Below, piece after piece: positions 1-32,810 of a stretch of DNA of 37,014 nt (position 1 is the stretch's first letter; every line of letters starts with the position of its first letter). The DNA is from Gammaproteobacteria bacterium. Its GTDB lineage: Bacteria; Pseudomonadota; Gammaproteobacteria; UBA1113. The position numbers and the translations under genes were made by a program. The stretch lies in NCBI GenBank assembly GCA_044369355.1, contig JBIPMB010000001.1, forward strand, positions 1 to 37,014, written 5' to 3'. Below the pieces are notes generated by a model, which did not search any database, was not told the origin of the DNA, and saw only the letters and a list, made by a program, of their open reading frames with translations.

Positions 1-2398
1 AGAACAATTCGACGATATCCCCTTAAAAACAGTCAATGGTGCAGTTGTACGTATAAAGGACATAGGCTACGCCACCTTGGGCGCCTTAAATTACAACAGT
101 TCTGCATATTTTAACGGTAAACCCATGACGGTCATGGCCATATTCCCTACTTCTGACGCCAATCCCTTAGCCGTATCGAAGGAAATTAAGGCGATACTAC
201 CCTCGCTGCAAACCAAGATGCCTCCGGGTTTAAACGTAAATACAGTTTACGATTCTTCTATCTTTATTCAAGAATCCATTACCGAGGTGGATAAAACGAT
301 CGTCGAAGCCGTTATTTTCGTGATCTTCGTTATCTTCTTATTCTTGGGCAATTTCCGTGCTGTGTTGATCCCTATCATAACGATTCCCTTATCTCTCATT
401 GGTGTTTGCGTGATCATGATGGCCTTGGGCTATAGCTTAAATACCTTAACGCTATTAGCGTGGGTATTGGCCATTGGTTTGGTGGTGGATGATGCCATCG
501 TCGTGTTAGAAAATATCCATAGGCATATGGAAAATGGCATGAAACCCATTCCCGCGGCCATTATAGGCGCGCGCGAAATTGGTTTTGCTATCATCGCCAT
601 GACCATTACCTTAGCCGCGGTGTATGCCCCCATTGGTTTCTCCGGCGGTATTACCGGTATTTTGTTTTCTGAATTTGCGTTTACGCTCGCGGCAGCTGTT
701 GTTGTATCGGGCTTTATCGCTTTAACCCTATCACCGATGATGTGTTCACGTCTCCTCAAGGTAGAACACGATCCTAACAGCAAAAGTATTGCTCATAAAA
801 TTGACGCTATTTTTACAAAGATTATGGCAAAGTATCGTGCTCGATTACAAAAAGTACTTAACAAAAAGCACTATGTAGTTATTTTTACCGTGCTCATGTG
901 GCTCGCTTGTTATTTTATCTATACCACCACACGTGAAACCTTAACGCCCCTAGAAGATCAAGGTGTTATAGTCACTTCATTCAACGCCCCTGCAGGCAAT
1001 AATGTTAACTATACAGAAAAGTTTAGTACTGCTCTCAATGCTATCTACGAAAAACAAACCGAGGTTCAGCACCTAGGCGTTATCAATGGCACCACCAGTG
1101 ATAATGTGGGTATTGCCTTTGCCCCCTTAGTGAATTGGAACGAACGCAAACGCTCGCAGTTTGATATTATGGCTGCAGTACAACCCGCCTTAAATGCCAT
1201 TCCCGGTTTACAAGCCTATGCCGTGCCTTACCCGTCTATTCCTCTGCCAGGCGGTTCATTCGGAATTTATTTTGCCATTTCTAGCCCGGACGGTATAAAC
1301 ACCTTGTTGCCCGCTATCAATGGTTTGCAAGAAGCCGTAGCCAATAATCCCGGTTTTAGACCTGGAGCACAAATTGATCTAAAGGTTGACCAACCGCAAA
1401 TTAACATCACCATAGATCGTCTGAAAGGCAGCGATCTGGGCGTCAGCGAAAGTTCTATAAGCAACTCACTAGCAGCTATGTTTGCTTCACCGCAAAATTT
1501 GCAGTTTTCTTATAATAACCGTAGCTATTATGTGGTACCGGAATTTATCAAGAACTTCAACTTTGAAGCCTCTCCCGATGACTTACAAAATATATACGTG
1601 AGAAGCACTACCACTCAGCAGCTGATCCCTTTATCCAATCTTGCAAAGATAGAAAACACGGTGCAACCGGAAAGTATCAACCATTTCCAACAAATTCCCT
1701 CGGCCACTCTGCAAGCTAACTTATTGGGTAACTACAGTACCAGTCAAGCTGTCAGCTTTTTAAGCGATTATATGACTAAAAATTTCCCTAAGATTAGTTT
1801 TAACTATGGTGGACAAACCCGTTATTACATAGCATCACAAGGTGAAATGACGCAAGTGATGTTATTCGCTATTATTATTATCTTCTTGGTGTTAGCGGCA
1901 CAGTTTGAAAGCTTTAGAGATCCGTTGATCATCCTCATCGTTGTACCTATCACCATCGCCACTGCTATTGCTGTCCTGCGCTTATTCGGCGGTAATTTAA
2001 ATATTTACAGTAAGATTGGTATAACCACGCTGATAGGCTTAATTGCCAAACACGGTATTTTGATCGTGGAATTTGCTAACCAGCTACAAGAAAAAGGTAT
2101 GTCTAAACTGGATGCAGTGATCGAATCTGCTACCCTGAGATTAAGACCCATATTAATGACCACCGGTGCTATGGTGTTAGGTGCCCTGCCCTTGGCCTTT
2201 GCTAGCGGCGCAGGTGCAAACTCGCGTATGCAAATCGGTATCATCATCGTTGCCGGTATGACCTTTGGTACGCTGTGTTCCTTATTCGTAGTACCGGCTT
2301 GGTATTTGTTGTTAGCAAATACTAAAGAAACCAATCCGCAGATGGAACGCGACATTGAAGACGCTATAGAGAAAATGAAGACGCTGGATGGTGAATAA
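1..2398 (+). CDS. RND (AcrB/HAE1-type) efflux pump inner-membrane permease, 5' end outside window
   Basis: The reading frame is open from base 2, so the listed ORF 77..2398 begins at an internal TTG. It has multiple TM segments with large soluble loops. The motif LAIGLVVDDAIVVLENI is typical of RND permeases. Confidence 0.9.
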   Translation, partial: EQFDDIPLKTVNGAVVRIKDIGYATLGALNYNSSAYFNGKPMTVMAIFPTSDANPLAVSKEIKAILPSLQTKMPPGLNVNTVYDSSIFIQESITEVDKTIVEAVIFVIFVIFLFLGNFRAVLIPIITIPLSLIGVCVIMMALGYSLNTLTLLAWVLAIGLVVDDAIVVLENIHRHMENGMKPIPAAIIGAREIGFAIIAMTITLAAVYAPIGFSGGITGILFSEFAFTLAAAVVVSGFIALTLSPMMCSRLLKVEHDPNSKSIAHKIDAIFTKIMAKYRARLQKVLNKKHYVVIFTVLMWLACYFIYTTTRETLTPLEDQGVIVTSFNAPAGNNVNYTEKFSTALNAIYEKQTEVQHLGVINGTTSDNVGIAFAPLVNWNERKRSQFDIMAAVQPALNAIPGLQAYAVPYPSIPLPGGSFGIYFAISSPDGINTLLPAINGLQEAVANNPGFRPGAQIDLKVDQPQINITIDRLKGSDLGVSESSISNSLAAMFASPQNLQFSYNNRSYYVVPEFIKNFNFEASPDDLQNIYVRSTTTQQLIPLSNLAKIENTVQPESINHFQQIPSATLQANLLGNYSTSQAVSFLSDYMTKNFPKISFNYGGQTRYYIASQGEMTQVMLFAIIIIFLVLAAQFESFRDPLIILIVVPITIATAIAVLRLFGGNLNIYSKIGITTLIGLIAKHGILIVEFANQLQEKGMSKLDAVIESATLRLRPILMTTGAMVLGALPLAFASGAGANSRMQIGIIIVAGMTFGTLCSLFVVPAWYLLLANTKETNPQMERDIEDAIEKMKTLDGE

Positions 2399-2400
2399 AA

Positions 2401-2424
2401 TAGAGGGCGGTTTATCGCCCTCTA
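2401..2424 (+). terminator. GC-rich hairpin directly after the RND stop codon
   Basis: TAGAGGGCG / CGCCCTCTA form a 9-bp perfect stem with a 6-nt loop, starting 3 nt after the TAA. No clear U-tract follows. Confidence 0.5.
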
Positions 2425-2699
2425 TGGCTAAACTTCAAAAGCGTAGAGCTACTCGCTTGTTCGCAATTGTACGTGAGAACTATGTTATAAATTGGGATAT
2501 GAGGAGAGCCGTTAGCAACTGTCTTGAACTGGGTAAATTTCACTCTGTTTTTAGAGTTTTTTATTACCCCCTCAAGTCGCGCCCTGCAAGATTATTACCC
2601 TTACCTTGCTCCGTGAGGGGCGCGATGCTGCCAACTCGCACAACGTCTCTAACGAGACACTGTGCTCGCTGGCCAGCTGAACTTTATCCTTGTATCCGC

Positions 2700-2930
2700 T
2701 TAACTTTCACAGGATACAATTGCTCCTGTCTTTGTGTTTATGGTTTCTAAATATCTCTTTTCTTTCTTCTCATCCCATAGGCTATTGCTTTTTACCATAG
2801 CATTGAGTATCAATAATAACTTATGCATTGCTGCCGTTACAGCTACCATTTTTGCTTTGCCTGCTGCTAATAACCGTTGATAAAATGCTCTTATATACCC
2901 ATCGCCAATGAAGATGCGAGAACGATGCAC
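2700..2930 (-). pseudogene. IS110/IS1111-family transposase, C-terminal fragment only
   Basis: The translation ...YIRAFYQRLLAAGKAKMVAVTAAMHKLLLILNAMVKSNSLW matches the conserved C-terminal signature of IS110-family transposases as I recall it (FYxRLxxxGKxxKVAxxAxxRKLLxILNAM). The N-terminal catalytic domain is absent. Confidence 0.55.
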
Positions 2931-3086
2931 TATCTCTTATTGAGAGCTCAGAATACTGGCCCAAAGCCATCGTTGCCGTTGTGTCAAACATGCCGTCAAT
3001 ACATCCTTGTAGGCTCGGTCGCGACATCCTGTCGCTCACGGTTTGCCACAACTTTGCAAAGGTGACTTTGAGCCTAAGTTCTGCGG
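2905..3086. repeat. Left arm of long inverted repeat
   Basis: Contains 29-bp (2962..2990) and 47-bp (3013..3059) blocks whose exact reverse complements occur at 4359..4387 and 4290..4336. Confidence 0.85.
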
Positions 3087-3115
3087 TTTTTATCTAGAAA
3101 AGAAGAAAACTCTAT

Positions 3116-3143
3116 TTGACAAAATGGCAAAGATTGTTAATAC
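3116..3143 (+). promoter_or_regulatory. Sigma70-like promoter upstream of the IS630 transposase
   Basis: TTGACA, 16-nt spacer, TAATAC, about 40 nt upstream of the ATG at 3183. Motif match only. Confidence 0.35.
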
Positions 3144-3182
3144 CCTATTGCAAAGCTGAAATAGATGTGATCAAATAAGGAT

Positions 3183-4211
3183 ATGAACCAAAAACTTAGC
3201 AAAAAAGAACGTGAAAATTTGTTGCAATCGCATCGTCAAGAGCGAGATAAGCGCGTGTGCGACCGAATAAAAGCAGTGCTAGCGTATGATGATGGTTACA
3301 GTTATGCAGAAATTGCAAAAATTCTCCTGTTAGATGACGAAACGATACGCCGTCATGTAGAAGATTATTTCTGTAAGGTGAAGCTAAAGCCGGAGAATGG
3401 AGGCAGCAGTAGTCATTTAAGCGTAAAGGAAAGCTTGTGGGTGAAAGCTCATCTAGAAGAAAATACTTATTTGTACGTTAAAGATATTTGTGCTTATGTA
3501 AAAGATAGATTTAACAAAAGATATAGTATAAGTGGTATGACAAAATGGCTGCATCAGCAAGGGTTTTGTTACAAGAAGCCCCACGGTGTACCGGCAAAAG
3601 CGGACAAGAAAGAGCAGGAAAAGTTTATAAAACGATATGCGCAATTAATAGATAAAACCCGAGGAAAAGAGCCTATTTACTTCGTAGACAGCGTGCATCC
3701 ACATCATCAAACAAGACTGACTTATGGATGGATATTAAAGGGAGTACGCAAAGATATTGCAATGACGGGTAGACAATATAAAGTCAACATCATTGGTGGA
3801 ATAAATCTAGATGGGCACAAACTAATATACAATCCAGTAGATAAAGTAGATGGTGAAGCGATCGGGGGATTTTTATTAGACTTGCGCAAACGGCATCCTG
3901 AAAAATGTAAGCTTCACATTATTTGGGATAACGCAGGATACCATCGGGATAAAGAAATAATAGAGCTAGCAAAGAAGTTAGCTATTGAATTACATTATTT
4001 ACCGCCGTATTCGCCGAACCTTAATCCTATAGAGCGCTTATGGAAGATAATGCATGAATGGGTAACTAATAATAGATATTATGAAACATTTTTAGAGTTT
4101 AGCGAAGCCATCATGAATTTTTTTAAGCTGATAGGCAGACATAAGAATATTTTACGGGCACGAATCACTGATAATTTTAGAGCGATACAATCACCGTTAT
4201 TCTCGCCTTAA
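3183..4211 (+). CDS. IS630/Tc1-mariner-family DDE transposase, apparently intact (342 aa)
   Basis: It has an N-terminal HTH region (YSYAEIAKILLLDDETIRRHV). The DDE signature reads YFVDSVHP ... IIWDNAGYHR ... LPPYSPNLNPIERLW, and PYSPxLNPIE is the classic IS630 motif. Confidence 0.9.
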   Translation: MNQKLSKKERENLLQSHRQERDKRVCDRIKAVLAYDDGYSYAEIAKILLLDDETIRRHVEDYFCKVKLKPENGGSSSHLSVKESLWVKAHLEENTYLYVKDICAYVKDRFNKRYSISGMTKWLHQQGFCYKKPHGVPAKADKKEQEKFIKRYAQLIDKTRGKEPIYFVDSVHPHHQTRLTYGWILKGVRKDIAMTGRQYKVNIIGGINLDGHKLIYNPVDKVDGEAIGGFLLDLRKRHPEKCKLHIIWDNAGYHRDKEIIELAKKLAIELHYLPPYSPNLNPIERLWKIMHEWVTNNRYYETFLEFSEAIMNFFKLIGRHKNILRARITDNFRAIQSPLFSP

Positions 4212-4262
4212 GAAAATAAGATAAGTATTTTAATGGGATTTTCTACATTTTCATGTAACGAA

Positions 4263-4429
4263 GCGCGGAACTTAAGTTCAAAGCCATCGTTGCAAAGTTG
4301 TGGCAAACCGTGAGCGACAGGATGTCGCGACCGAGCCCCCATGGATGGGTTTACGGCGTGTTTGACACAACGGCAACGATGGCTTTGAACGAGTAACCTG
4401 TGAGTTTGAGAATCTCGCATCTTGAAGTG
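4263..4429. repeat. Right arm of long inverted repeat; itself a long hairpin
   Basis: It is the reverse complement of the left arm. Internally, 4279..4293 CAAAGCCATCGTTGC pairs perfectly with 4373..4387 GCAACGATGGCTTTG. Confidence 0.85.
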
Positions 4430-4942
4430 GAATGGGTAAAGAAGGGAGTTTCTTTAAAAAAATTAAAGAAGACAGTCAAAGAGCTACTTTCAATAACCGG
4501 GGGGTCTTCATTATCTGTAGCAGCAACTGTGCCATAATGACTATCTGGTTTGTCATTCAGTAAGGAAATATTTGTAACGCTGTTTTCTTCTGGAGGTTGG
4601 CTCTCAAAATCAGTTTGTATTTGCATGGCATCTTCATAAGTTATACGCATTTTTTTAAAAGCCTATTTTGATTTCTCAATAGCAACATTATACCATTATC
4701 ATGAATATGTTCTCTTGCGAAAAGGGCCTTTATGTGAATAAACTATTATCCTTTCTGATGATGTACGCATTATAATGGTGAGGGGTAAACGCAATTAAAT
4801 TTGTTTTGAGGTTAAAATTCCAAAAAATATTGATGTACATTATAAAAAGAAAGGGAATATGCATTGAAAATTGAAATAGATGATAACTATAGCTATTATA
4901 TCTGAGGATGTAGTCGTATCAAGAGGATATTGTGTTTCAGAA

Positions 4943-5382: not shown

Positions 5383-5513
5383 TATACTCTTCGCATTTGA
5401 CCTTTAGGCTTTGTTGCCTTCGCCCATCTCGCATCCAGTATATGACATAAGTACGTCAATCCTTTTGCTCGAGAGCTAGGCGCCTCGCCTAAAAATCAAC
5501 TGCTGTGAGTAAG
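5383..5513. repeat. 131-bp MITE-like dispersed element, copy A (trmD/rplS junction)
   Basis: About 115/131 positions are identical to 9596..9726 by manual alignment, in the same orientation. The terminal inverted repeats are imperfect (~27 bp). Confidence 0.85.
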
Positions 5514-17300: not shown

Positions 17301-17782
17301 TGGCTGCAATCCGTGGTGATCTTAAACTTGTGAAACTGCTATTAGAAAACGACGCGGATCCTGCTATAGCGAATGATGCTGGAAAGAAATTTCATCAACT
17401 ACAACAGGCTAATGGAGACACAGTACTGCATTTGGCTGCACGTCGTGGTGATCTTAAGTTTGTACAACTGCTATTAGAAAAGGGCGCGGATCCTACTATA
17501 GCGAATAATGATAGAAGAAAATTTCATGAACTAAAACAGGCTAATGGCGGTACAGCGCTAAGTTTGGCGATGTCTAAACACATTGATGATGTTAAGTTGA
17601 TAAGTACTTTGATGCGAAATGGTGCTAAGCTTGATGTAAAAGATGGTAAACAGAGTGCTGAGAGAAAGGAATTATCTTTTGCCACACGGCTATATAGATT
17701 CTTTAGTTCTTCTTCAGAAAAGGAAGTAGTTCCCGCCGCACTTATCAGCAGACGTTTTGTCAAGCTCCCCCCCGCCGCTTAA
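14327..17782 (+). CDS. Kinase-fold / ankyrin-repeat protein (~1151 aa), candidate eukaryote-targeting effector
   Basis: The N-terminal third carries ordered kinase landmarks (LGEGNDSAVY, LAIKIE, RINLNQSNFLV, DFV, APE). The rest is about 20 ANK repeats (xTPLHLAAxxGxxxxVxLLLxxGAxxN). I prefer the ATG at 14327 (GAAGG 7 nt upstream) over the GTG at 14312. Confidence 0.85.
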   Translation: MSAKLPTVKVDEKTYSLLIVKTGSTPKQRYFLLDEKLGEGNDSAVYVAYEATKRGVGKFRYELNEKAAKPLAIKIEKNYSSKDRPQIMKQREVESKIPPNPNTDIYPIGDHGIAKVRLKVPGKPLNDLINTKEFKKLTLSQRLELAKTYAEFHQKQGEQGRKYNNDKMGANRINLNQSNFLVDIRYAAGDKKHEHPIFECNKIDFVDLSVRTPLTTAPECMHGEEIGCPLDNALEMETYSLTAMIALILGETDVFKDKKNNEDVKGKFNLDNMQKYLEKESKESKFEIEIKAVIDMVQSMQNDNPALRPSAPAIVKVLDRAQLAVLGKEHDESDDAKDIEKFFAAIKAGDLEYINENSNPNMLAQLDIEGLTPLGVAIKHGQNEIAKKLFEQYNSEEKKAAVRQTDSNGRTLLHLAILAKNAVLVNSLLENGAEANKKDADNRTPLHCALSMRCGLEIVKDLLDKRADVEEKDNHGRYPEEMAIANKCDVAIVKLLLERTATYKDYEKDIKLRIKLLFLAIKSGSKELVEYFLNGDIIKKQHLFLVSPLHFAASVGHVEVAEFLITKGFSPVLPDREGNTPLHYAAMKGQLEMAILLLVKGANLGHQTNAANQKFHEVTDSKGNTLLHIAIREGNVGFAKKLIASGANVNTKDGKGFTPLHLAIIKGDIRLVELLIASGANVNAKNSEGMTPLHLAASYRKLELVQLLLQKNPNLNIEDKNGQKFHEVTDSKGNTLLHIAIDEGKIDLAKMLIGIGANVNVTNSEGKTPLYLAISNRELGLIQLLLEQGADPNREYGRDKKKFHEITDSDENTLLHIAIDEGKANLAKRLIDMGANVNAQNKQGQTPLHLAAIYGELGPIQLLLRHNADTELKDGSGRKFHEVTDSKRNTLLHIAIHEGKIDLAKKLIEMGADLDAQNSHRETPLHLAAIHDGLWLVQLLERNGNPELKDDNKNTLLHIAIHKGQIDLARKLIKIGTDVNAQNSQGNTPLHLAAIRGDLKLVKLLLENDADPAIANDAGKKFHQLQQANGDTVLHLAARRGDLKFVQLLLEKGADPTIANNDRRKFHELKQANGGTALSLAMSKHIDDVKLISTLMRNGAKLDVKDGKQSAERKELSFATRLYRFFSSSSEKEVVPAALISRRFVKLPPAA
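16163..17560 (+). repeat. Intragenic tandem modules encoding 2-3 ANK repeats each
   Basis: The 24-mer AATACTTTACTACATATCGCTATT occurs exactly five times, starting at 16196, 16526, 16760, 16991 and 17186. The 68 nt at 16163 and 16493 differ at only 3 positions. Confidence 0.9.
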
Positions 17783-21481: not shown

Positions 21482-22483
21482 TTATTTGCCATTGCTGAGC
21501 AACGCTTGCTGAATGCGATTGATGAGCGGCGATAACTCAGGGAAATTGGGCTGCAAATTAGTATTTTCTAATAGTTTTAATTGTTGCAGAATGTTTTGTG
21601 CCGTAGCATTATTGGTATCGTAATGTGCATGTAACCAGCGCTCAGCATCTTGAATGCTACTTTGAAACAATGCTGTGTTGTGTGCTATGGCTGCCCATTG
21701 TGCTTGAGCTAGGTATAAGGACAGACGAGCATTGAGATAAGCGCGTTCATCGGGAGTAATAAAATGTGGGGCTTCGGCGCCATAATGTTTGACCGTAATA
21801 ACTTTTTGTAACCCTTGCCAGGCATTATTCCCTAATTTATTCCAAAAAGAACGCTGTGTATCTTGTGTTTTAGCATTATCTTTAGGTTCAGTTTGTGTTA
21901 AAGGTAAAGCATTAATGGTGTCTTGCACTGCTGATAATTGGCTGACAATTTTCGCAATGTTTAATGCCGGCACGGTCTTTAAGGTAGCCAGCGTTTGTTG
22001 CAATGAACCGTCTAAGGCTTGTAATTCGGCATCCGTACTTTGTGTGAGCTCATTGTGCGCTGCTTGTAAATAAATAGAAGCTTTGTTGGCATCAAATTGA
22101 TATAATAGTGCATCTTGTGCCAATTGCGCTAGATAGAGTACGTGCGCTAAGGGCAGGGCAGATAATTGTGCGTGTAACGTAGTCACTTGGGTTTGTAATT
22201 GTGTCAAGGCTTGCTGATTATTTTTATTGTCAGCTGTTAAATTTTGTATAGTTCCATTTAGAGCTGTGATGGATTTTTTATTTTGTTTTAGAGTATGTTG
22301 CATACCCGATAGTTCTTGTGCGCTGGCAGAGAAAGAAGCTTGCCAGGCACTGGCGTGATAGTAAAAATAAATGGCCACACTAAGAGATAAGCCTAGCGCA
22401 ATCAATCCTACGAGCAGCGTGAGCCATATCCAGGGGGCGGTGCGTTTGTTTGCAATGGGAGTTGTTGCGGGTGTATCAGTCAT
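21482..22483 (-). CDS. hemX: HemX-type membrane protein (uroporphyrinogen-III methyltransferase-like)
   Basis: It has a single N-terminal TM segment and a Gln/Leu/Ala-rich coiled region, and sits in the hemD-hemX-hemY order. Confidence 0.8.
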   Translation of the reverse strand: MTDTPATTPIANKRTAPWIWLTLLVGLIALGLSLSVAIYFYYHASAWQASFSASAQELSGMQHTLKQNKKSITALNGTIQNLTADNKNNQQALTQLQTQVTTLHAQLSALPLAHVLYLAQLAQDALLYQFDANKASIYLQAAHNELTQSTDAELQALDGSLQQTLATLKTVPALNIAKIVSQLSAVQDTINALPLTQTEPKDNAKTQDTQRSFWNKLGNNAWQGLQKVITVKHYGAEAPHFITPDERAYLNARLSLYLAQAQWAAIAHNTALFQSSIQDAERWLHAHYDTNNATAQNILQQLKLLENTNLQPNFPELSPLINRIQQALLSNGK

Positions 22484-22510: not shown

Positions 22511-22635
22511 CATACTCTTCGGCCAATGAAGATGCGAGAATGTGCGTAGGGGCAGGCCTCCGTGCCTGTCCTAAAGGGGCAACCACAGGGGGTTGCCCCT
22601 ACGCACCGAGCCGCATCTTGAAGTGCTTGAGTATG
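22511..22635. mobile_element. 125-bp palindromic MITE-like element at the hemD/hemX junction
   Basis: Its ends CATACTCTTCGGCCAATGAAGATGCGAGA and CGCATCTTGAAGTGCTTGAGTATG match the ends of the 2894..4440 element. The internal inverted repeat GTGCGTAGGGGCA / TGCCCCTACGCAC is 13 bp and perfect. Confidence 0.75.
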
Positions 22636-23372
22636 GCCTCGTCGCTGGCGTTATCTGCCACAGTAATGCTTCCTTTATGGCCCAATTTGCGCGCTAATGA
22701 GCACATTTTATCACTAATGAGCAAGAGATGACAGTCGCGCCAATCGGGTTTGTTCATTGGTTGTGCAAAATGTAATAAAAGCGCTAAATTTTGCAACCCC
22801 TCACTACTGGTGACGATGAATAAGCTGCTTTTGGGAGTATGTATCTGTTTTTCTAAGTCTAGGGAGGGCGTAGGGCAGTGACGTTCATAGCAATCAAAAA
22901 TTGTAACTATGGCGCCTTGTTGTTGTAAACTGGGCGCTAATAAGCCGCGGCCGCCTTTACCCTTAAAAATAGCGATTTTTTGTCCTTTTACATTTTTTAA
23001 AACTGCCAAATTCAATAAACCCTCGCTGGAATACTCTTTTTCGGGTGTGATTATATTATGAAAGCCATAGTGTATCAGCGCTTTTGCCGTTCCAGGGCCT
23101 TGCGCGACGAATTGTGTAGTAGGCCAAATTTTTGGACTTAATGCACATAATTTCATGGCGTGATGCACGGCGGTAGGGCTGACAAACAAGGCGCTATTAA
23201 AAAGTGTATTTCTAAAATTGTGAAAATAAGGGATCACGTCAGAATTTTCTGCAATTTCTAATGTAGGAAAGAGTAAGGGTTGAAAGCCCAATGTTTGTAA
23301 ACGCTGTAGCAACGATGAGGCCGTGGTAATAGGTTTAGTAATGACTATATGTTCGATGTGATTGACATTCAT
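22599..23372 (-). CDS. hemD: Uroporphyrinogen-III synthase
   Basis: Its size and position upstream of hemX-hemY fit HemD, and the fold pattern is HemD-like. The last 11 codons and the stop lie inside the 125-bp element. Confidence 0.85.
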   Translation of the reverse strand: MNVNHIEHIVITKPITTASSLLQRLQTLGFQPLLFPTLEIAENSDVIPYFHNFRNTLFNSALFVSPTAVHHAMKLCALSPKIWPTTQFVAQGPGTAKALIHYGFHNIITPEKEYSSEGLLNLAVLKNVKGQKIAIFKGKGGRGLLAPSLQQQGAIVTIFDCYERHCPTPSLDLEKQIHTPKSSLFIVTSSEGLQNLALLLHFAQPMNKPDWRDCHLLLISDKMCSLARKLGHKGSITVADNASDEAILKHFKMRLGA

Positions 23373-23561: not shown

Positions 23562-24161
23562 ATGCCAAAGAAAGCAACGAAGCATGCCGCTCATAGTGGT
23601 ATTCACAGTTTGCAAAGCGAATGCAAAGCTATTTTGCAAAAATTAACTGCAGCGCATCAAGATTGGGTGAAAAGCACCGAGAAAGCGGCTGCTAAAATCA
23701 AAGCACAATGGGCCAAAGCGGATCAAATAGTGAAAAAAGCTAAAGCTCAAAAGGCAGCTCTCAAGGGTAAAGGCGCTGGTAAAAAAACGGCTACGCACAA
23801 AAAGCAAGCCGATAAAGTAACAATGGCTTTTGTTCAAGCTAAAACCTTAGCACAAAGCTTAAAGAAAGAATTATCTGCTGTATTGCCAGAATTGAAGACA
23901 GCAAAAGCGGCATTAAAACGCCATATAGCAGTAGAAAAAGTGGCAGCTAAAAAAATAGTTGCAGCTAAAGTCAAAGCAGCTCCAGCTAAGGCCAAGAAAG
24001 CAGCCCCAGCTAAGGCCAAGAAAGCAGCTCCAGCTAAGGCCAAGAAAGCAGCTCCAGCTAAGGCCAAGAAAGCAGCTCCAGCTAAGGCCAAGAAAGCTGC
24101 AGGCAAAAGCACACGTGGCCATAAGGCAAAGCCGGTAGTGGTGGCTGCGGAACAAGCCTAG
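23562..24161 (+). CDS. Lys/Ala-rich histone-H1-like / AlgP-like basic protein (199 aa)
   Basis: The whole sequence is Lys/Ala-rich and the C-terminus carries (AAPAKAKK)x5. A GGAGAAG RBS is present. Confidence 0.8.
   Translation: MPKKATKHAAHSGIHSLQSECKAILQKLTAAHQDWVKSTEKAAAKIKAQWAKADQIVKKAKAQKAALKGKGAGKKTATHKKQADKVTMAFVQAKTLAQSLKKELSAVLPELKTAKAALKRHIAVEKVAAKKIVAAKVKAAPAKAKKAAPAKAKKAAPAKAKKAAPAKAKKAAPAKAKKAAGKSTRGHKAKPVVVAAEQA
23977..24096 (+). repeat. Five tandem 24-bp coding repeats
   Basis: GCAGCTCCAGCTAAGGCCAAGAAA is repeated five times with a single substitution, in unit 2. Confidence 0.95.
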
Positions 24162-24173
24162 AGATTGTCAGTT

Positions 24174-24290
24174 CGCTTGTAGGGGCGGCTCGCGAGCCGC
24201 CCAGAATCAACGCGTATGACCATGGATTTGCGTGTAGTCATTGTCATGTGCTGTGTTAGCAGGGCGCCTCGCGAGGCGCCCCTACAAGCG
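24174..24290. repeat. 117-bp element bounded by inverted GTAGGGGC-type hairpin units
   Basis: CGCTTGTAGGGGCGGCTCGCGAGCCGCCC sits at the left and its near-exact reverse complement at the right. Each end contains a perfect GC palindrome. Confidence 0.8.
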
Positions 24291-24307
24291 AGCACCCGTT
24301 TACATCC

Positions 24308-24333
24308 CCTAAGAATCAAATGCGAAGAGTATA
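24308..24333. repeat. 26-bp fragment identical to the left terminus of the 131-bp element (inverted)
   Basis: CCTAAGAATCAAATGCGAAGAGTATA is the exact reverse complement of 9596..9621. Confidence 0.8.
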
Positions 24334-24334
24334 C

Positions 24335-27677: not shown

Positions 27678-27705
27678 TGTTGTAGGGGCGGCTCGCGAGC
27701 CGCCC
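27678..27705. repeat. GTAGGGGC-type REP-like hairpin between convergent genes
   Basis: TTGTAGGGGCGGCTCGCGAGCCGCCC is identical over 26 nt to 24177..24202. It contains the 20-nt perfect palindrome GGGCGGCTCGCGAGCCGCCC. Confidence 0.8.
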
Positions 27706-27743: not shown

Positions 27744-28976
27744 TTACTCCACAACCGCCTGCATAGGTTCTTCCGCGCGTATAGCCCAGGTGTAAAAACT
27801 AAAGCCAATGAATATAAAAGCAGCGCAAGCTGTAGCAATCGATGTAGCGCTTTGAACATTGATCAAACTCATCAGAAAACCAGAAAATGTGGCTATACAT
27901 AGATAGATTAGGCTCGCAATGGCTGCGGCGCTGCCCGCCATTTCCCTAAATAGACTCATCGTTGCGCCCATGCACGTGGGGTACAGTATGCCGTTAGAAA
28001 AATACAAAACCGCTGTAGGAATCAGTATTGCCCATACATTGTTGCTGTAATAATGAGTTATTAAAACGCCCAGTAAAGCGCATATTAAAGCCATCGGCAG
28101 ACCTATAGACAATATTTTCTGTGATGTAAAACGTTTAATTAAGGCTCTACAAAAGAATGTGCCACATAAAGCGATGATTCCCAAACAAAAAGCAGCATGA
28201 CCAAAAAAGATAGGGGTATACCCTAATTTCTTTTCAATGAAAAAAGGCCCTAGGCTATTAAAGACTACAAGAAAAGAAAAAAGACAGCCCATTAATACAC
28301 CGATGCTCATGAAAACCTTGTGGCGCAACAGTAGTGAAAAATTATTTTTAACGCGTTTAAAACTCAAAGCAGTACGTTTATGATGAGTTTCTGGTAACCA
28401 CAACAAACAAGCGATTAGGCTGATGAAACCGTAAACGGCAAAAAATAAGAAATTAGCCTGCCAACCTATGTAGACTTGTAAGTAGCTGCCGATAACAGGC
28501 CCAATGATAGGGCCTAGAGCCCACATCGTCGCCAACCATGCAGCGGTACGCAACAAGGCGGGCCCAGTCAATAAATCCACTGCGACTGAACGCATGAGTA
28601 CGCCAAAGGTGCCTATGGCAACTCCCTGCAATAGCCGCGATAATAATAAAATAGAAGGATAGGGCCATAATGCGGGTAATATGCTGACAATAACCAATAG
28701 AATAAAACCGCTTAATATTAAAGGACGGCGACCCCAGGTTTCAGATAATATTCCACTGAAAAAAGTACTGATTGCACCGCCTATGATAAAAAAAGTGATG
28801 AGATCTTTAGCAACCATGGGGGACGTGTGTAAAGCATGATTGATAGCGGGAAGCGATGGCGCAATTAAATCTATACCCATGCCCATCAATGGCATAAAAC
28901 ACATGAGCATGGCGATAATGCCACGTTTTCTGGCTTCTGAAAGGGGCGGGTGAGTGCTGTTATATTCTATAGCCAT
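27744..28976 (-). CDS. MFS transporter (DHA1/Bcr-CflA-like), paralog 1
   Basis: It has 12 predicted TM segments and the loop motif SETWGRRPL. By eye it is roughly two-thirds identical to 30141..31367. Confidence 0.9.
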   Translation of the reverse strand: MAIEYNSTHPPLSEARKRGIIAMLMCFMPLMGMGIDLIAPSLPAINHALHTSPMVAKDLITFFIIGGAISTFFSGILSETWGRRPLILSGFILLVIVSILPALWPYPSILLLSRLLQGVAIGTFGVLMRSVAVDLLTGPALLRTAAWLATMWALGPIIGPVIGSYLQVYIGWQANFLFFAVYGFISLIACLLWLPETHHKRTALSFKRVKNNFSLLLRHKVFMSIGVLMGCLFSFLVVFNSLGPFFIEKKLGYTPIFFGHAAFCLGIIALCGTFFCRALIKRFTSQKILSIGLPMALICALLGVLITHYYSNNVWAILIPTAVLYFSNGILYPTCMGATMSLFREMAGSAAAIASLIYLCIATFSGFLMSLINVQSATSIATACAAFIFIGFSFYTWAIRAEEPMQAVVE

Positions 28977-30140: not shown

Positions 30141-31367
30141 TTATTCCGCCACCACTTGTTCAGCCCTCTTACTCCGCATTGCCCAGGCATACAACACAAA
30201 ACCAACGAATATAAAGGCGGCGCTGGTGTAGGCAATTGGTCTAGAACTTTGAACGCTGATCATGCTGGCCAGAAAACCAGAACCCATAGTTACACCTAAA
30301 TTGATTAAGGTAGTAACACCGCCGGCACTGCCCGCCAGTTCTTTAAACATGCTCATTGTTATACCCATACAAGTGGGATACAGTACGCCGTTAGAAAAGA
30401 ACAAGAAAGCAGTGGGAATGAGTATTGCCCACACATTATGACTAAAAGAAGTCATTACAACACCGACCAAGGAAAATATTAAAACTATGGGCGTACCTGT
30501 AGACAATATTTTTTTCGGGTCTACATATTTGACCAAAACGCGACAACAAAATGTTCCAGACAAGAAGACGAGTCCCAAACAAAAAGCGGCGTGACCAAAA
30601 AATATAGGGGAATGACCTAACTTTTTCTCAATGAAAAAAGGCCCTAAAGTGTTAAAAATGATAAGAGTAGAATAAAGGCAACCCATTAACACACTGACGC
30701 TTACGAAAATTTTATCGCGTAACAGAATGGCAAAGTTATTTTTAATGCGCGTTACACTTAATGCCGGGCGTTTATGTTTATGGTGTGTTTCAGGCAACCA
30801 TAGAAAACAGGCTACAGCCCCTACAAGGCCATAAACCGCAAAAAATAAAAAACAAGCCTGCCAGCCTATATACACTTGTAAATAACCGCCAATGATGGGT
30901 CCAATGATAGGGCCGATACCCCACATCGTTGCTACCCATGAAGCGGTACGCAATAAAGTCGTTCCAGTTAGTAAGTCGGCTATGACGGAACGCATTAACA
31001 CACTAAAAGTGCCTATCGCTAAACCTTGTAACAAGCGAGATAATAATAAAATAGAGGGGTAAGGATAAAGTGGTGGTATTACACTGACAATAACCAATAA
31101 AGTAAAACCGATTAACATAAGACGGCGACGTCCCCAGGTATCCGATAATATGCCGCTCAAAAAAGTGCCGCTCATCAAACCCATTAAATAAATAGCGATG
31201 AGATCTTTGGCGACCATGGGAGAGATGTGTAAAGTCTGATTGATGGCGGGCAGTGAAGGCGCAATTAAATCAATACCCATCCCTACTAACGGTAGAAAAC
31301 ACAATAACATCCTAACGATGGCGCGTGTTTTGGCTTCTGAAAGGGGTAGTTCATGGGATGAGGTCAC
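30141..31367 (-). CDS. MFS transporter (DHA1/Bcr-CflA-like), paralog 2
   Basis: It has 12 predicted TM segments and the loop motif SDTWGRRRL, and is a paralog of 27744..28976. Confidence 0.9.
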   Translation of the reverse strand: MTSSHELPLSEAKTRAIVRMLLCFLPLVGMGIDLIAPSLPAINQTLHISPMVAKDLIAIYLMGLMSGTFLSGILSDTWGRRRLMLIGFTLLVIVSVIPPLYPYPSILLLSRLLQGLAIGTFSVLMRSVIADLLTGTTLLRTASWVATMWGIGPIIGPIIGGYLQVYIGWQACFLFFAVYGLVGAVACFLWLPETHHKHKRPALSVTRIKNNFAILLRDKIFVSVSVLMGCLYSTLIIFNTLGPFFIEKKLGHSPIFFGHAAFCLGLVFLSGTFCCRVLVKYVDPKKILSTGTPIVLIFSLVGVVMTSFSHNVWAILIPTAFLFFSNGVLYPTCMGITMSMFKELAGSAGGVTTLINLGVTMGSGFLASMISVQSSRPIAYTSAAFIFVGFVLYAWAMRSKRAEQVVAE

Positions 31368-32770: not shown

Positions 32771-32810
32771 CGTAGGGGCAGGCCCCTGTGCCTGCTCAAT
32801 AGGGTAAGCA
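32771..32810. repeat. GTAGGGGC-type REP-like half element (plsX/fabH spacer)
   Basis: CGTAGGGGCAGGCCCCTGTGCCTGCTCAATAGGG closely resembles 22545..22578 (CGTAGGGGCAGGCCTCCGTGCCTGTCCTAAAGGG). Confidence 0.55.

What the first reader, a model, noticed from the sequence alone, without database searches (positions are those of the whole stretch)
2894..4440. Intact IS630 transposase inside a ~1.5-kb palindrome whose ends match the 125-bp element: possible autonomous/MITE pair
The transposase ORF is flanked by ~170-bp inverted arms that include exact 47-bp and 29-bp blocks. The outermost left 30 nt (TATACCCATCGCCAATGAAGATGCGAGAAC) match the left end of the hemD/hemX element at about 26/30. Both right ends share CGCATCTTGAAGTG. 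There are two readings. In the first, this is an IS630-family element with unusually long structured terminal repeats, and the 125-bp element is its non-autonomous derivative. In the second, an IS630 landed in the loop of a pre-existing larger palindromic repeat of the same family. I could not find a clean TA duplication or short IS630-type TIRs just outside the ORF; there is only a weak TAGAAAA match at about 3095 and 4239. That leaves the question open.
Basis: partly seen in the sequence, partly recalled or inferred. Interest (0 to 1): 0.7.

Follow-up and report, generated by a model that had tools for sequence, protein, structure and literature searches.

The report
IS630 insertion sequence with hairpin arms
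This is an active IS630-type jumping gene that has fused with a small palindromic repeat and now moves with about 210 bp of hairpin-forming DNA on each side; a 125-bp repeat elsewhere in the window carries the same kind of ends, so it is an interesting structural variant of a well-known kind of element.

Summary
Window 2896-4438 is a 1,543-bp IS630-family insertion sequence with an intact 342-aa DD34E transposase.

- **Ends.** Its true ends are the outermost 26-27 bp. They match the asymmetric left- and right-type terminal repeats, flanked by TA, of every compact 1,117-bp relative (47-73% aa identity).
- **Arms.** The extra ~210 bp on each side are mutually inverted. Each arm holds a ~133-nt hairpin kept by compensatory changes. 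All 15 or so close copies (85-100% nt) found at 7 or more different sites carry the arms, so the whole palindrome is the mobile unit.
- **Origin (inferred).** A compact ancestor inserted into a palindromic MITE with the same ends. The ORF still ends in a degenerate inner right repeat.
- **This copy.** It is a recombinant of two subtypes, with the crossover at 3012-3025. That explains its weak left hairpin and the missing right-hand TA.
- **The 125-bp hemD/hemX element.** It has the same left- and right-type ends (profile E 5e-4 and 3e-3) but an unrelated REP-doublet core. It is a MITE of this IS clade, not a deletion copy of this IS.

This is a new structural variant of a known kind, of modest interest.

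The parts
2894..2895 (.). TA next to the left end (target-site duplication candidate). The matching right-hand dinucleotide, 4439-4440, is AA in this copy.
   Evidence: TA lies on both sides in sister copies L066, L068, L070, L004 and L001, and in all 8 compact copies in one MAG.
2896..2922 (+). Left terminal inverted repeat, L-type: TACCCATCGCCAATGAAGATGCGAGAA.
   Evidence: It is the best hit in the whole window (2894-2919, E 5.4e-8) to a profile built only from left ends of compact relatives. Sequence shared with the independent locus L001 starts exactly here.
2923..3112 (+). Left arm. It contains a ~133-nt hairpin at 2950-3082, with outer stems at 2959-2976 and 3056-3073.
   Evidence: It is inverted relative to the right arm. 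The hairpin is present in all close copies. In this copy the fold is weak (z -2.9) because the two stem halves come from different subtypes.
3012..3025 (.). Crossover interval of the recombinant copy.
   Evidence: The left flank and 2919-3011 match the P0123/L070 subtype at all 19 in-element informative sites. Positions 3026-4430 match the L001 subtype at every informative site, about 100 in all.
3110..3141 (+). Candidate relic of the ancestral inner left TIR. It is the most variable segment among the subtypes.
   Evidence: It sits where compact relatives have their left TIR. A local alignment to the L062 left end gives p=0.01; there is no signal in the L004 and P0123 types, and no nhmmer hit among the 22 best hits listed. 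The evidence is weak.
3146..3176 (+). Conserved 5' motif TATTGCAAA..N..TGATCAAAT, which contains a GATC, just upstream of the RBS and ATG. It is possibly the transposase promoter.
   Evidence: It is conserved from this IS to relatives at 47-73% identity. The consensus promoter scan did not call it. The promoter reading is inference only.
3183..4211 (+). IS630-family DDE transposase, 342 aa, with DD34E triad D169, D249 and E284.
   Evidence: The triad is invariant in 122 aligned homologues. The identical protein occurs on other contigs.
4200..4239 (+). Degenerate inner right TIR (TTCTCGCCTTAAG...TAATGGGAT) that overlaps the stop codon.
   Evidence: In all compact relatives the right TIR overlaps the last codons and the stop. 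The ORF-end half aligns to compact right TIRs with p 0-0.012 (best query, L005); the terminal half is not significant.
4240..4412 (+). Right arm. It contains a ~133-nt hairpin at 4267-4399, with outer stems at 4276-4293 and 4373-4390.
   Evidence: Folded as single-stranded DNA it gives -42.5 kcal/mol, z -8.4. Covariation is seen across 9 hairpin variants.
4413..4438 (+). Right terminal inverted repeat, R-type: TCTCGCATCTTGAAGTGGAATGGGTA.
   Evidence: It is the best hit in the window (E 3.3e-7) to the profile of right ends of compact relatives. Sequence shared with L001 and L064-L075 ends here.
22513..22633 (+). The 125-bp hemD/hemX element. It is a MITE with an L-type left end (22513-22540) and an R-type right end (22612-22633), and a core made of two inverted GTAGGGGC REP-like hairpins.
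   Evidence: It is the second-best hit in the window to both end profiles, E 5e-4 (left) and 3.2e-3 (right). The fold gives z -6.05. The flanking genes are HemX and HemD.
2700..2893 (-). Context only: a C-terminal remnant of an IS110-family transposase that is cut off exactly at the left end of the IS.
   Evidence: NCBIfam transpos_IS110, E 2.2e-5, model positions 308-341 of 343. The same flank occurs in L070, with a different right flank.

Best explanation
Window 2896-4438 is one copy of a 1,543-bp insertion sequence of the IS630 family (IS630/Tc1/mariner superfamily).

**How it moves.** Its 342-aa DD34E transposase is expected to bind the outermost 26-27-bp terminal repeats and move the whole unit by cut-and-paste into a TA dinucleotide, which is duplicated. 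This mechanism is inferred from family knowledge. The end sequences and the TA flanks are shown here.

**Structure.** Between each terminal repeat and the transposase module lie about 210 bp that compact relatives (1,117 bp) lack. The two arms are inverted copies of each other. Each contains a ~133-nt hairpin whose pairing has been kept through compensatory substitutions.

**Origin (inferred).** A compact ancestor inserted near the AT-rich centre of a palindromic MITE that carried the same family of terminal repeats. The inner repeats then decayed. The right one survives only where it encodes the last transposase codons. The outer MITE ends took over, so the fusion now transposes as a unit.

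**This copy.** It is a homologous recombinant between two co-existing subtypes. That broke its left hairpin and removed the matching right-hand TA.

**The 125-bp element.** The element between hemD and hemX is a separate MITE. It has the same clade-specific left-type and right-type ends around an unrelated REP-doublet core. It could therefore be moved in trans by this or a sister transposase.
For: **Family and intactness.**

**True ends.**
- Eight copies of a 63%-identical relative in one MAG define a 1,117-bp IS: TA|TAGCACTCGCCATTGAAGATGCGAA...TTCGCATCTTGAAGTGAAATTGCTA|TA.
- The same asymmetric ends sit 40-75 nt before the ATG and across the stop codon in about 20 other relatives.
- Profiles built only from those relatives pick 2894-2919 (E 5e-8) and 4438-4415 (E 3e-7) as the best hits in the 37-kb window.
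- The left/right typing holds at every paired end scanned except the left end of L063.

**The whole palindrome is the mobile unit.**
- L001, L004, L064-L076 and P0121 carry the arms at 7 or more different flanks. Homology starts and stops exactly at TATACCC / GGGTATA.
- The arms persist down to 85% nt identity (L074) and in an internally deleted derivative (L076).
- TA lies on both sides in 5 of the 6 copies for which both flanks are known.

**Hairpins.**
- Fold z-scores are -6 to -8.4.
- Across 9 variants, 44 pairs are 97.7% paired. Ten pairs show changes on both sides, against 3.9±1.3 in shuffles (0 of 500 reached 10) and 0-2 in slid controls.

**Fusion origin.**
- The ORF end is homologous to the inner half of the right TIR (p 0-0.012), yet a complete right TIR lies 205 nt downstream.
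- MITEs with these ends and palindromic cores exist elsewhere: L041 (about 215 bp) and L042 (about 235 bp, with TA on both sides).
- Abutting ends of the form GGGTA-TA-TACCC in L001, L015 and L063 show that these elements often land on one another.

**Recombinant copy.** The same chimera appears in an independent sample, L002.

**The 125-bp element.**
Against: - No transposase-free copy of the ~417-bp palindrome was found, so the host MITE is hypothetical.
- The inner left relic is weak. One alignment gives p=0.01, the two other subtypes give nothing, and it is absent from the 22 best nhmmer hits listed.
- The terminal half of the inner right relic is not significant.
- The insertion would have to lie almost exactly at the centre of symmetry of the palindrome.
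- Compensatory changes in a DNA palindrome can arise from templated (quasi-palindrome) correction without any selection, so a function for the hairpins is not shown.
- This copy lacks TA on its right side.
- Only one copy of the 125-bp element was seen. Its outermost 7 nt differ from the IS, and it is flanked by CA and TG unless its terminal TAs are counted as the duplication.
- Transposition itself was not observed. It is inferred from multiple sites and identical copies.
Confidence: 0.75

Rival explanations
1. The arms did not come from a host MITE. Hairpin DNA (a small mobile palindrome) inserted inside one or both non-coding ends of a compact IS. Conversion between the ends then made the arms alike.
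For: - The hairpin behaves as a separable module. Most of it is missing from the left arm of L004 while the rest of that arm remains.
- The two arms of one subtype share subtype-specific variants, which indicates exchange between arms.
- The inner left relic is statistically weak.
Against: - A simple insertion does not explain two copies of the inner half of the right TIR, one at the ORF end and one in the outer TIR.
- The L004 gap retains the 3' part of the hairpin, so it is a deletion and not an empty site.
- Arm similarity extends about 30-50 nt beyond the hairpin on its inner side.
Confidence: 0.2
2. A conventional short-ended IS630 simply sits in the loop of a static palindromic repeat. 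The arms are not part of the mobile unit.
For: There is no recognisable TIR next to the ORF, and this one copy has no matched TA.
Against: - Every close copy at 7 or more different flanks carries both arms, and homology ends exactly at the outer TIRs.
- The outer ends are the clade's TIRs.
Confidence: 0.02
3. The long arms are functional IR/DR-type ends, as in Tc3 or Sleeping Beauty. On this reading the transposase binds both an outer and an inner site in each arm.
For: Each arm has an outer TIR and, about 210 nt inside, a segment at the position of an ancestral TIR. Arm length is constant (-273 to -276 and +205 to +208) across 85-100% nt variants.
Against: - The inner left segment is the least conserved part of the element among the subtypes.
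- The end profiles did not list either inner site among their 22 best hits.
- The conserved AAGATGCG core is disrupted in the inner right copy.
Confidence: 0.05
4. The chimeric structure of the window copy is a metagenome assembly artefact (two IS variants joined in silico), not a real recombinant.
For: The IS is a multi-copy repeat, and two subtypes occur in the same sample: L001 and L067 are both from sample 3300034096.
Against: - An independently assembled contig from another sample (L002) is an exact substring of window 2835-4478 and spans both flanks.
- The interval free of informative sites around the crossover is short: the exact block is 48 nt. That is shorter than the large k-mers commonly used by metagenome assemblers (my own knowledge).
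Confidence: 0.1

Closest known systems
IS630 family insertion sequences (IS630/Tc1/mariner superfamily). Compact relatives are found here in Legionellales, Coxiellaceae and Chlamydiae MAGs and in Legionella yabuuchiae.
   Same: They share the DDE_3 transposase with HTH domains and a DD34E triad. They share the same asymmetric 26-27-bp terminal repeats and TA flanks. The ORF is about 342 aa throughout.
   Different: This element is 1,543 bp instead of 1,117 bp. About 210 bp of mutually inverted, hairpin-forming DNA lies between each TIR and the transposase module. The right TIR no longer overlaps the stop codon. The nearest annotated plasmid-borne relatives are only about 45% identical.
RUP / IS630-Spn1 of Streptococcus pneumoniae (a MITE proposed to be mobilised by an IS630-family transposase)
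   Same: A small non-coding element shares terminal repeats with an IS630-family IS and is associated with TA. RUP also tends to land in other IS elements (PMC2229807). Here the 125-bp element, L041 and L042 share the IS ends.
   Different: Here the IS itself appears to have fused with such a MITE and carries its arms. The 125-bp element was seen only once, and its TA duplication is ambiguous.
Long-IR Tc1/mariner elements of eukaryotes (Tc3; IR/DR elements such as Sleeping Beauty). This comparison rests on my own knowledge.
   Same: The transposase superfamily and the TA target are the same. Inverted repeats of about 200 bp or more flank the gene.
   Different: In IR/DR elements the inner binding sites are conserved and needed. 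Here the inner sites are degenerate and variable. The arms are dominated by a self-pairing hairpin.
REP/REPIN elements mobilised by RAYT transposases. This comparison rests on my own knowledge.
   Same: The core of the 125-bp element is two inverted GTAG-headed GC-rich hairpins. Similar units occur at 24173-24202, 24262-24291, 27680-27705 and 32771-32804.
   Different: The arms of the IS are not similar to those REPs in sequence. The outer ends of the 125-bp element are IS630-type TIRs, which REPINs lack.

Membership tests
IS630 family (IS) | DDE_3-type transposase with N-terminal HTH domains and a DD34E/D catalytic triad | tested here: met
   NCBIfam transpos_IS630 E 1.8e-60 over model positions 2-297 of 299. 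Pfam DDE_3 E 4e-34, plus HTH_33 and HTH_29. D169, D249 and E284 are invariant in 122 homologues, with 34 residues between the second D and the E.
IS630 family (IS) | Short terminal inverted repeats at the ends of the mobile unit | tested here: met
   The outer 26-27 bp (2896-2922 and 4413-4438) match profiles of relatives' ends at E 5e-8 and 3e-7. Homology between independent loci stops there.
IS630 family (IS) | Insertion at TA with TA duplication | tested here: inconclusive
   The feature is met in 8 of 8 compact copies and in L001, L004, L066, L068 and L070. It is not met in the window copy itself: TA on the left, AA on the right. Recombination between copies explains that. No empty site was available.
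IS630 family (IS) | Compact size (about 1.0-1.4 kb by my own knowledge of the family) with little non-coding DNA | tested here: not met
   This element is 1,543 bp, against 1,117 bp for L008 and L062. The excess is the two arms. Size is a typical feature of the family, not a defining one.
MITE of the same IS clade (the 125-bp element) | Small, non-coding, with terminal repeats matching those of an autonomous IS | tested here: met
   The element is about 121-125 bp. Its left end scores E 5e-4 to the left-end profile and its right end E 3.2e-3 to the right-end profile, the second-best hits in the window after the IS itself.
MITE of the same IS clade (the 125-bp element) | Target-site duplication like that of the IS (TA) | tested here: inconclusive
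   The flanks read CA|TACTC...GAGTA|TG. There is a TA duplication only if the terminal TAs are counted as the duplication rather than as part of the element.
MITE of the same IS clade (the 125-bp element) | Multiple dispersed copies | tested here: not met
   There is one copy in the window. No further copy appeared in the metagenome scan with the shared 18-mer. The source genome as a whole could not be searched.
IR/DR-type Tc1/mariner element | Conserved inner transposase-binding repeat in each long IR | tested here: not met
   The inner sites do not appear among the 22 best hits listed for either end profile. Positions 3110-3141 are the most variable segment between subtypes. Actual binding is not testable here.
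Structured hairpin module (arms) | Base pairing maintained by compensatory change | tested here: met
   Across 44 pairs, 97.7% of cells are paired. Ten pairs show changes on both sides, against 3.9±1.3 in shuffles (0 of 500) and 0-2 in slid controls. This shows that the pairing is maintained. It does not show whether selection or templated correction is the cause.
Known RNA families (Rfam 15) | Match at gathering score | tested here: not met
   There are no gathering-level hits in the window. In 2300-4700 there are only two sub-threshold hits, E 0.049 and 0.9, neither of them on the hairpins.

The most novel reading that the evidence does not exclude
The hairpin arms are not passive baggage. 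On this reading they are a selected structural module of the transposon, for example DNA cruciforms or RNA hairpins that help end pairing, insulate the transposase gene from outside transcription, or limit transposition. That would make this a bacterial counterpart of the long-IR Tc1/mariner elements. It would also show a concrete route, capture of a MITE by its own IS, by which long structured terminal repeats arise.
Probability: 0.25. Interest if true: 0.55.

Novelty: new variant of a known kind. Interest (0 to 1): 0.35.

Why it matters
- **Defined ends for an unnamed clade.** The work defines the ends (asymmetric left- and right-type 26-27-bp TIRs with TA flanks) of an unnamed IS630 clade that is widespread in Legionellales-like bacteria. 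It links that clade to small hairpin-core MITEs, which helps annotate such genomes. One such MITE here supplies the last 11 codons and the stop of hemD.
- **An apparent IS-MITE fusion.** It documents what looks like an IS-MITE fusion that stayed mobile and kept about 210-bp hairpin arms through at least 15% sequence divergence, with clear compensatory changes. Long structured terminal repeats are familiar in eukaryotic Tc1/mariner elements but, to my knowledge, are not typical of bacterial IS630 members.
- **What it would take to matter more.** If the hairpins prove functional, this would be a tractable bacterial model for the role of long IRs. If not, it is simply a well-resolved example of nesting, decay of inner ends and IS-mediated recombination.

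Tried and rejected
- **Metagenome scan with the shared 18-mer GCCAATGAAGATGCGAGA.** It gave 31 loci, mostly chance matches in unrelated contigs. Only L037, L041, L042, L051 and L054 were relevant. The contigs that hold the close copies are not in that collection, so solo palindromes could not be searched for there.
- **Viral-contig scan with a 22-nt hairpin pattern.** Nothing found.
- **Using a spurious 70-aa ORF across the right arm as a protein query to fish for more arm copies.** It gave one hit, P0121. This is a further insertion site judged from its sequence, but its DNA could not be fetched.
- **Rfam at gathering and at E up to 1.** Nothing on the arms.
- **Consensus promoter and terminator scan of 2600-4700.** No terminator-like site. 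Promoter-like sites were fewer than in shuffles. So there is no support for the hairpins as intrinsic terminators.
- **nhmmer search for inner TIR relics.** No inner site appeared among the 22 best hits listed.
- **First shuffle test of the relics.** The end-gap settings were wrong and I discarded it. The local-alignment version replaces it.
- **'Two MITE copies abutting the IS in tandem' as the origin of the arms.** Rejected, because the arms are inverted and not direct, including their asymmetric hairpin loops and inner spacers.
- **IS1111-type targeting of the IS end by the neighbouring IS110 remnant.** Rejected, because the remnant is cut in mid-gene at the junction rather than ending there.
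- **The TATACCCATTTTACTTCA match at 26338.** This is a chance match inside a gene; no AAGATGCG follows it.
- **Plasmid tblastn for a named relative.** It returned only generic 'IS630 family transposase' annotations at about 45% identity.
Full report
**1. What is in the sequence**

- Window 3183-4211(+) encodes a 342-aa protein. It matches NCBIfam 'IS630 family transposase' over almost the whole model (E 1.8e-60). It also matches Pfam DDE_3, HTH_33 and HTH_29.
- In an alignment with 121 homologues, D169, D249 and E284 are invariant, which gives a DD34E triad.
- The ORF is flanked by inverted DNA. A 153-nt core at 2949-3101 / 4248-4400 is 84% complementary, and an outer 39-nt pair reaches 2883 / 4451.
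- A global alignment of the two sides gives exact runs of 48 and 29 nt. Similarity runs from the very ends in to about 3112 / 4236.
- The 125-bp element between HemX (21482-22483) and HemD (22599-23372) shares AAGATGCGAGA on its left and CGCATCTTGAAGTG on its right with the IS.

**2. Where the real ends are**

- A scan of one genome per species found 27 loci that encode relatives.
- Eight copies of a 63%-identical relative in one long-read MAG align perfectly over 1,117 bp and diverge abruptly outside it. The element reads TA|TAGCACTCGCCATTGAAGATGCGAA ... TTCGCATCTTGAAGTGAAATTGCTA|TA, with TA on both sides in all eight.
- About twenty other relatives (47-73% aa identity; Legionellales, Coxiellaceae and Chlamydiae MAGs, Legionella yabuuchiae, metagenome contigs) have the same architecture.
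  - The left repeat, TATACCnnTCGCyAwTGAAGwTGCGAA, lies 40-75 nt before the ATG.
  - The right repeat, TTCGCATCTTGAAGTGnAATGGGTATA, overlaps the last codons and the stop (...F-A-S-stop).
- The two ends are not simple mirror images. The 8 nt between the terminal TACCCAT and the AAGATGCG core differ between the left type (CGCyAwTG) and the right type (reverse complement of GAAGTG-).
- I built profile HMMs only from these compact relatives and searched the whole 37-kb window.
  - With the left-end profile the best hit is 2894-2919 (E 5.4e-8).
  - With the right-end profile the best hit is 4438-4415 (E 3.3e-7).
- The same left/right typing holds at every paired end scanned except the left end of L063, which scores as right-type.
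- So the outermost ~27 bp of the '1.5-kb palindrome' are the genuine IS630-type terminal repeats. In this lineage they lie 274 nt before the ATG and 205 nt after the stop, instead of hugging the gene.

**3. The whole palindrome moves**

- The identical protein occurs on three other contigs.
  - L002 is the same locus from another sample.
  - L001 has a different left flank. It shares sequence beginning exactly at TATACCC, and after GGGTA-TA it runs straight into a second, tandem copy.
- The 90% cluster of this protein has 27 members. I fetched the contigs of four of them.
  - The P0123 type (96.5% aa identity) is on L064-L073.
  - L075 is 92% identical at the nucleotide level.
  - L074 is 85% identical at the nucleotide level.
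  - L076 is an internally deleted derivative.
- In all of these the left repeat is at -273 to -276 and the right repeat at +205 to +208. Both arms are present.
- L004, the 90% relative in a MAG, keeps the right arm. Its left arm has lost most of the hairpin but retains the hairpin's 3' part, so this is a deletion and not an empty site.
- There are at least seven different flanks in all. TA lies on both sides in L001, L004, L066, L068 and L070.
- Element lengths are 1,543-1,544 bp, with L004 at 1,428 bp.
They do not.

**4. The arms and their hairpins**

- Each arm contains a ~133-nt hairpin. Outer 18-bp stems, for example 4276-4293 / 4373-4390, enclose a second stem and two small apical hairpins.
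- Folded as single-stranded DNA, the right arm gives -42.5 kcal/mol (z -8.4). The corresponding hairpins of L001 and L004 give z -6.0 and -7.5.
- Different subtypes have different but internally matching stems:
  - P0123 type: GCCCAAAGCCATCGTTGC / GCAACGATGGCTTTGGGC
  - L001 type: GCTCAAAGTCACCATTGC / GCAAAGGTGACTTTGAGC
  - L074: GCTCAAAGCCCCCATTGC / GCAATGGGGGCTTTGAGC
- On nine distinct hairpins, 44 pairs are 97.7% paired. Ten pairs show changes on both sides. That compares with 3.9±1.3 in column shuffles (0 of 500 reached 10) and 0-2 when the partners are slid by 1-3 columns.
- The pairing is therefore actively maintained. Two causes are possible and cannot be separated here: selection on a structure, or the templated correction that quasi-palindromes undergo (the latter is my own knowledge).
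- No Rfam family matches the arms. No terminator-like site is found. The arm sequence occurs nowhere else in the window or in the other fetched loci.

**5. Why this copy looks odd**

- I compared the window with the two subtypes site by site.
  - The left flank and positions 2919-3011 agree with the P0123/L070 type at all 19 informative sites inside the element.
  - Positions 3026-4430 agree with the L001 type at all of about 100 informative sites.
- L070 is a P0123-type copy with the same left flank (the IS110 remnant) but a different right flank that begins with TA.
- The window copy is therefore a recombinant between two copies at different loci, with the crossover at 3012-3025.
- This explains three things:
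  - the mismatched stem halves and weak fold of its left hairpin (z -2.9);
  - the absence of a matching TA on the right;
  - the fact that the right flank does not continue the IS110 gene cut at the left flank.
- L002, assembled independently from another sample, is an exact substring of window 2835-4478. That argues against an assembly artefact, although only reads could settle it.

**6. How the arms arose (inference)**

- In compact relatives the last codons and the stop lie inside the right repeat.
- The window ORF ends with TTC TCG CCT TAA. This aligns to that inner half (p 0-0.012 against shuffles, best query L005), yet a complete right repeat lies 205 nt further out. Part of the right repeat is thus present twice.
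- A simple insertion of foreign DNA into an IS end does not predict that. Nesting of a compact IS inside an element with the same ends does.
- On the left, the segment at the position of the ancestral repeat (3110-3141) shows only one marginal alignment (p=0.01 to L062). It is the most variable part of the element among subtypes. That fits a decaying relic but does not prove one.
- The arms are truly inverted, including their asymmetric loops and the ~30-50 nt inside the hairpins. That excludes two tandem MITEs flanking the IS.
- Suitable hosts exist. MITEs of about 215 and 235 bp with these ends, palindromic cores and AT-rich centres occur in other metagenomes (L041, L042).
- Elements of this clade often land on each other. 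Abutting ends of the form GGGTA-TA-TACCC occur in L001, L015 and L063.
- Relatives at 71-73% aa identity are still compact, and every lineage at or above 85% nt identity has the arms. The fusion therefore happened between those two depths.
- I put the fusion origin at roughly 55-60%. Its main rival is internal insertion of hairpin DNA followed by conversion between the ends, at about 20%.

**7. The 125-bp element**

- Its ends read TACTCTTCGGCCAATGAAGATGCGAGAA ... CGCATCTTGAAGTGCTTGAGTA.
- They are the second-best hits in the window to the left-end and right-end profiles (E 5e-4 and 3.2e-3), in the correct left/right arrangement.
- Its core is unrelated to the IS. It consists of two inverted GTAG-headed GC-rich hairpins of a REP type that also occurs alone elsewhere in the window.
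- Its right end is closer to the right end of L062 than to that of this IS.
- Only one copy was seen, and a TA duplication exists only if its terminal TAs are counted as the duplication.
- It is best described as a MITE of this IS630 clade that could be mobilised in trans. This is the kind of relation proposed for RUP and IS630-Spn1 (PMC2229807). It is not a deletion derivative of this IS.

**8. Verdict**

- The finding is real, and the open question can be answered. The long arms belong to the mobile unit, and its ends are conventional for the clade. The most likely history is an IS-MITE fusion.
- Everything fits the known IS630/MITE framework. The unusual feature is the conserved, covarying ~133-nt hairpin in each arm.
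- I rate it a new structural variant of a known kind, with modest interest.

Noticed in passing
window 2399-2893 (minus strand): A C-terminal remnant of an IS110-family transposase lies at 2700-2893 (NCBIfam E 2.2e-5). About 300 nt of non-coding DNA follow it, up to the end of the AcrB-like gene at 2398. This could be the 3' non-coding end of an IS1111-type element. The remnant is cut off exactly at the left end of the IS630 element.
   Followed up: partly
window 5383-5513, 9596-9726, and a partial copy at 24308-24334: A second small repeat family of 131 bp; the two full copies are 89% identical. Its ends, TATACTCTTCGCATTTGA ... TCAACTGCTGTGAGTAAG, have the same layout as the IS630-type ends (terminal TACTC/GAGTA, an asymmetric spacer, an inverted core) but a different core. 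It may be a MITE of a sister IS.
   Followed up: partly
window 24173-24202, 24262-24291, 27680-27705, 32771-32804, and the core of 22542-22606: GTAG-headed GC-rich hairpins (GTAGGGGCGGCTCGCGAGCCGCCC and GTAGGGGCAGGCC...). They occur singly downstream of genes and as inverted doublets, so they look REP/REPIN-like. No RAYT gene was looked for.
   Followed up: no
window 22599-22633 (minus strand): The last 11 codons and the stop of hemD (...ILKHFKMRLGA*) are encoded inside the right end of the 125-bp element. The stop codon is the TAG of a GTAG REP head. The insertion therefore appears to have replaced the native C-terminus of HemD.
   Followed up: partly
L001 4229-4262; L015 about 1908-1945; L063 about 1423-1470: The right end of one element abuts the left end of another with only TA between them (GGGTA-TA-TACCC). 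In L001 the two partners are different subtypes. This points to a preference for inserting at the TA beside an existing end (a TATA context).
   Followed up: partly
L076 2212-3387; L064 about 1700; L069 1-20; L054 570-615: Decay products of the family were seen. L076 is an internal deletion (element positions 981-1341) that keeps both arms. L064 has a truncated right TIR and L069 a truncated left TIR. L054 holds a ~44-bp mini-element made of a left TIR plus the last 8 nt of a right TIR.
   Followed up: no
window 3146-3176, and the same position in L004-L024, L062 and L063: The motif TGATCAAAT (which contains a Dam site, GATC) is conserved 6-9 nt before the ATG in most of the clade members examined. 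In the closer relatives TATTGCAAA lies about 13 nt upstream of it. This may be a -35/-10 pair giving a very short leader. The consensus promoter scan did not call it.
   Followed up: no
window 14312-17782; 23562-24161; 27744-28976 and 30141-31367: Three gene-level observations. There is a 1,156-aa protein with many ankyrin repeats. There is a 199-aa protein with 24-nt tandem repeats encoding Lys/Ala-rich units and no Pfam match. There is also a pair of paralogous genes about 75% identical at the DNA level. Together with the IS relatives, these suggest a Legionellales-like, host-associated bacterium.
   Followed up: no
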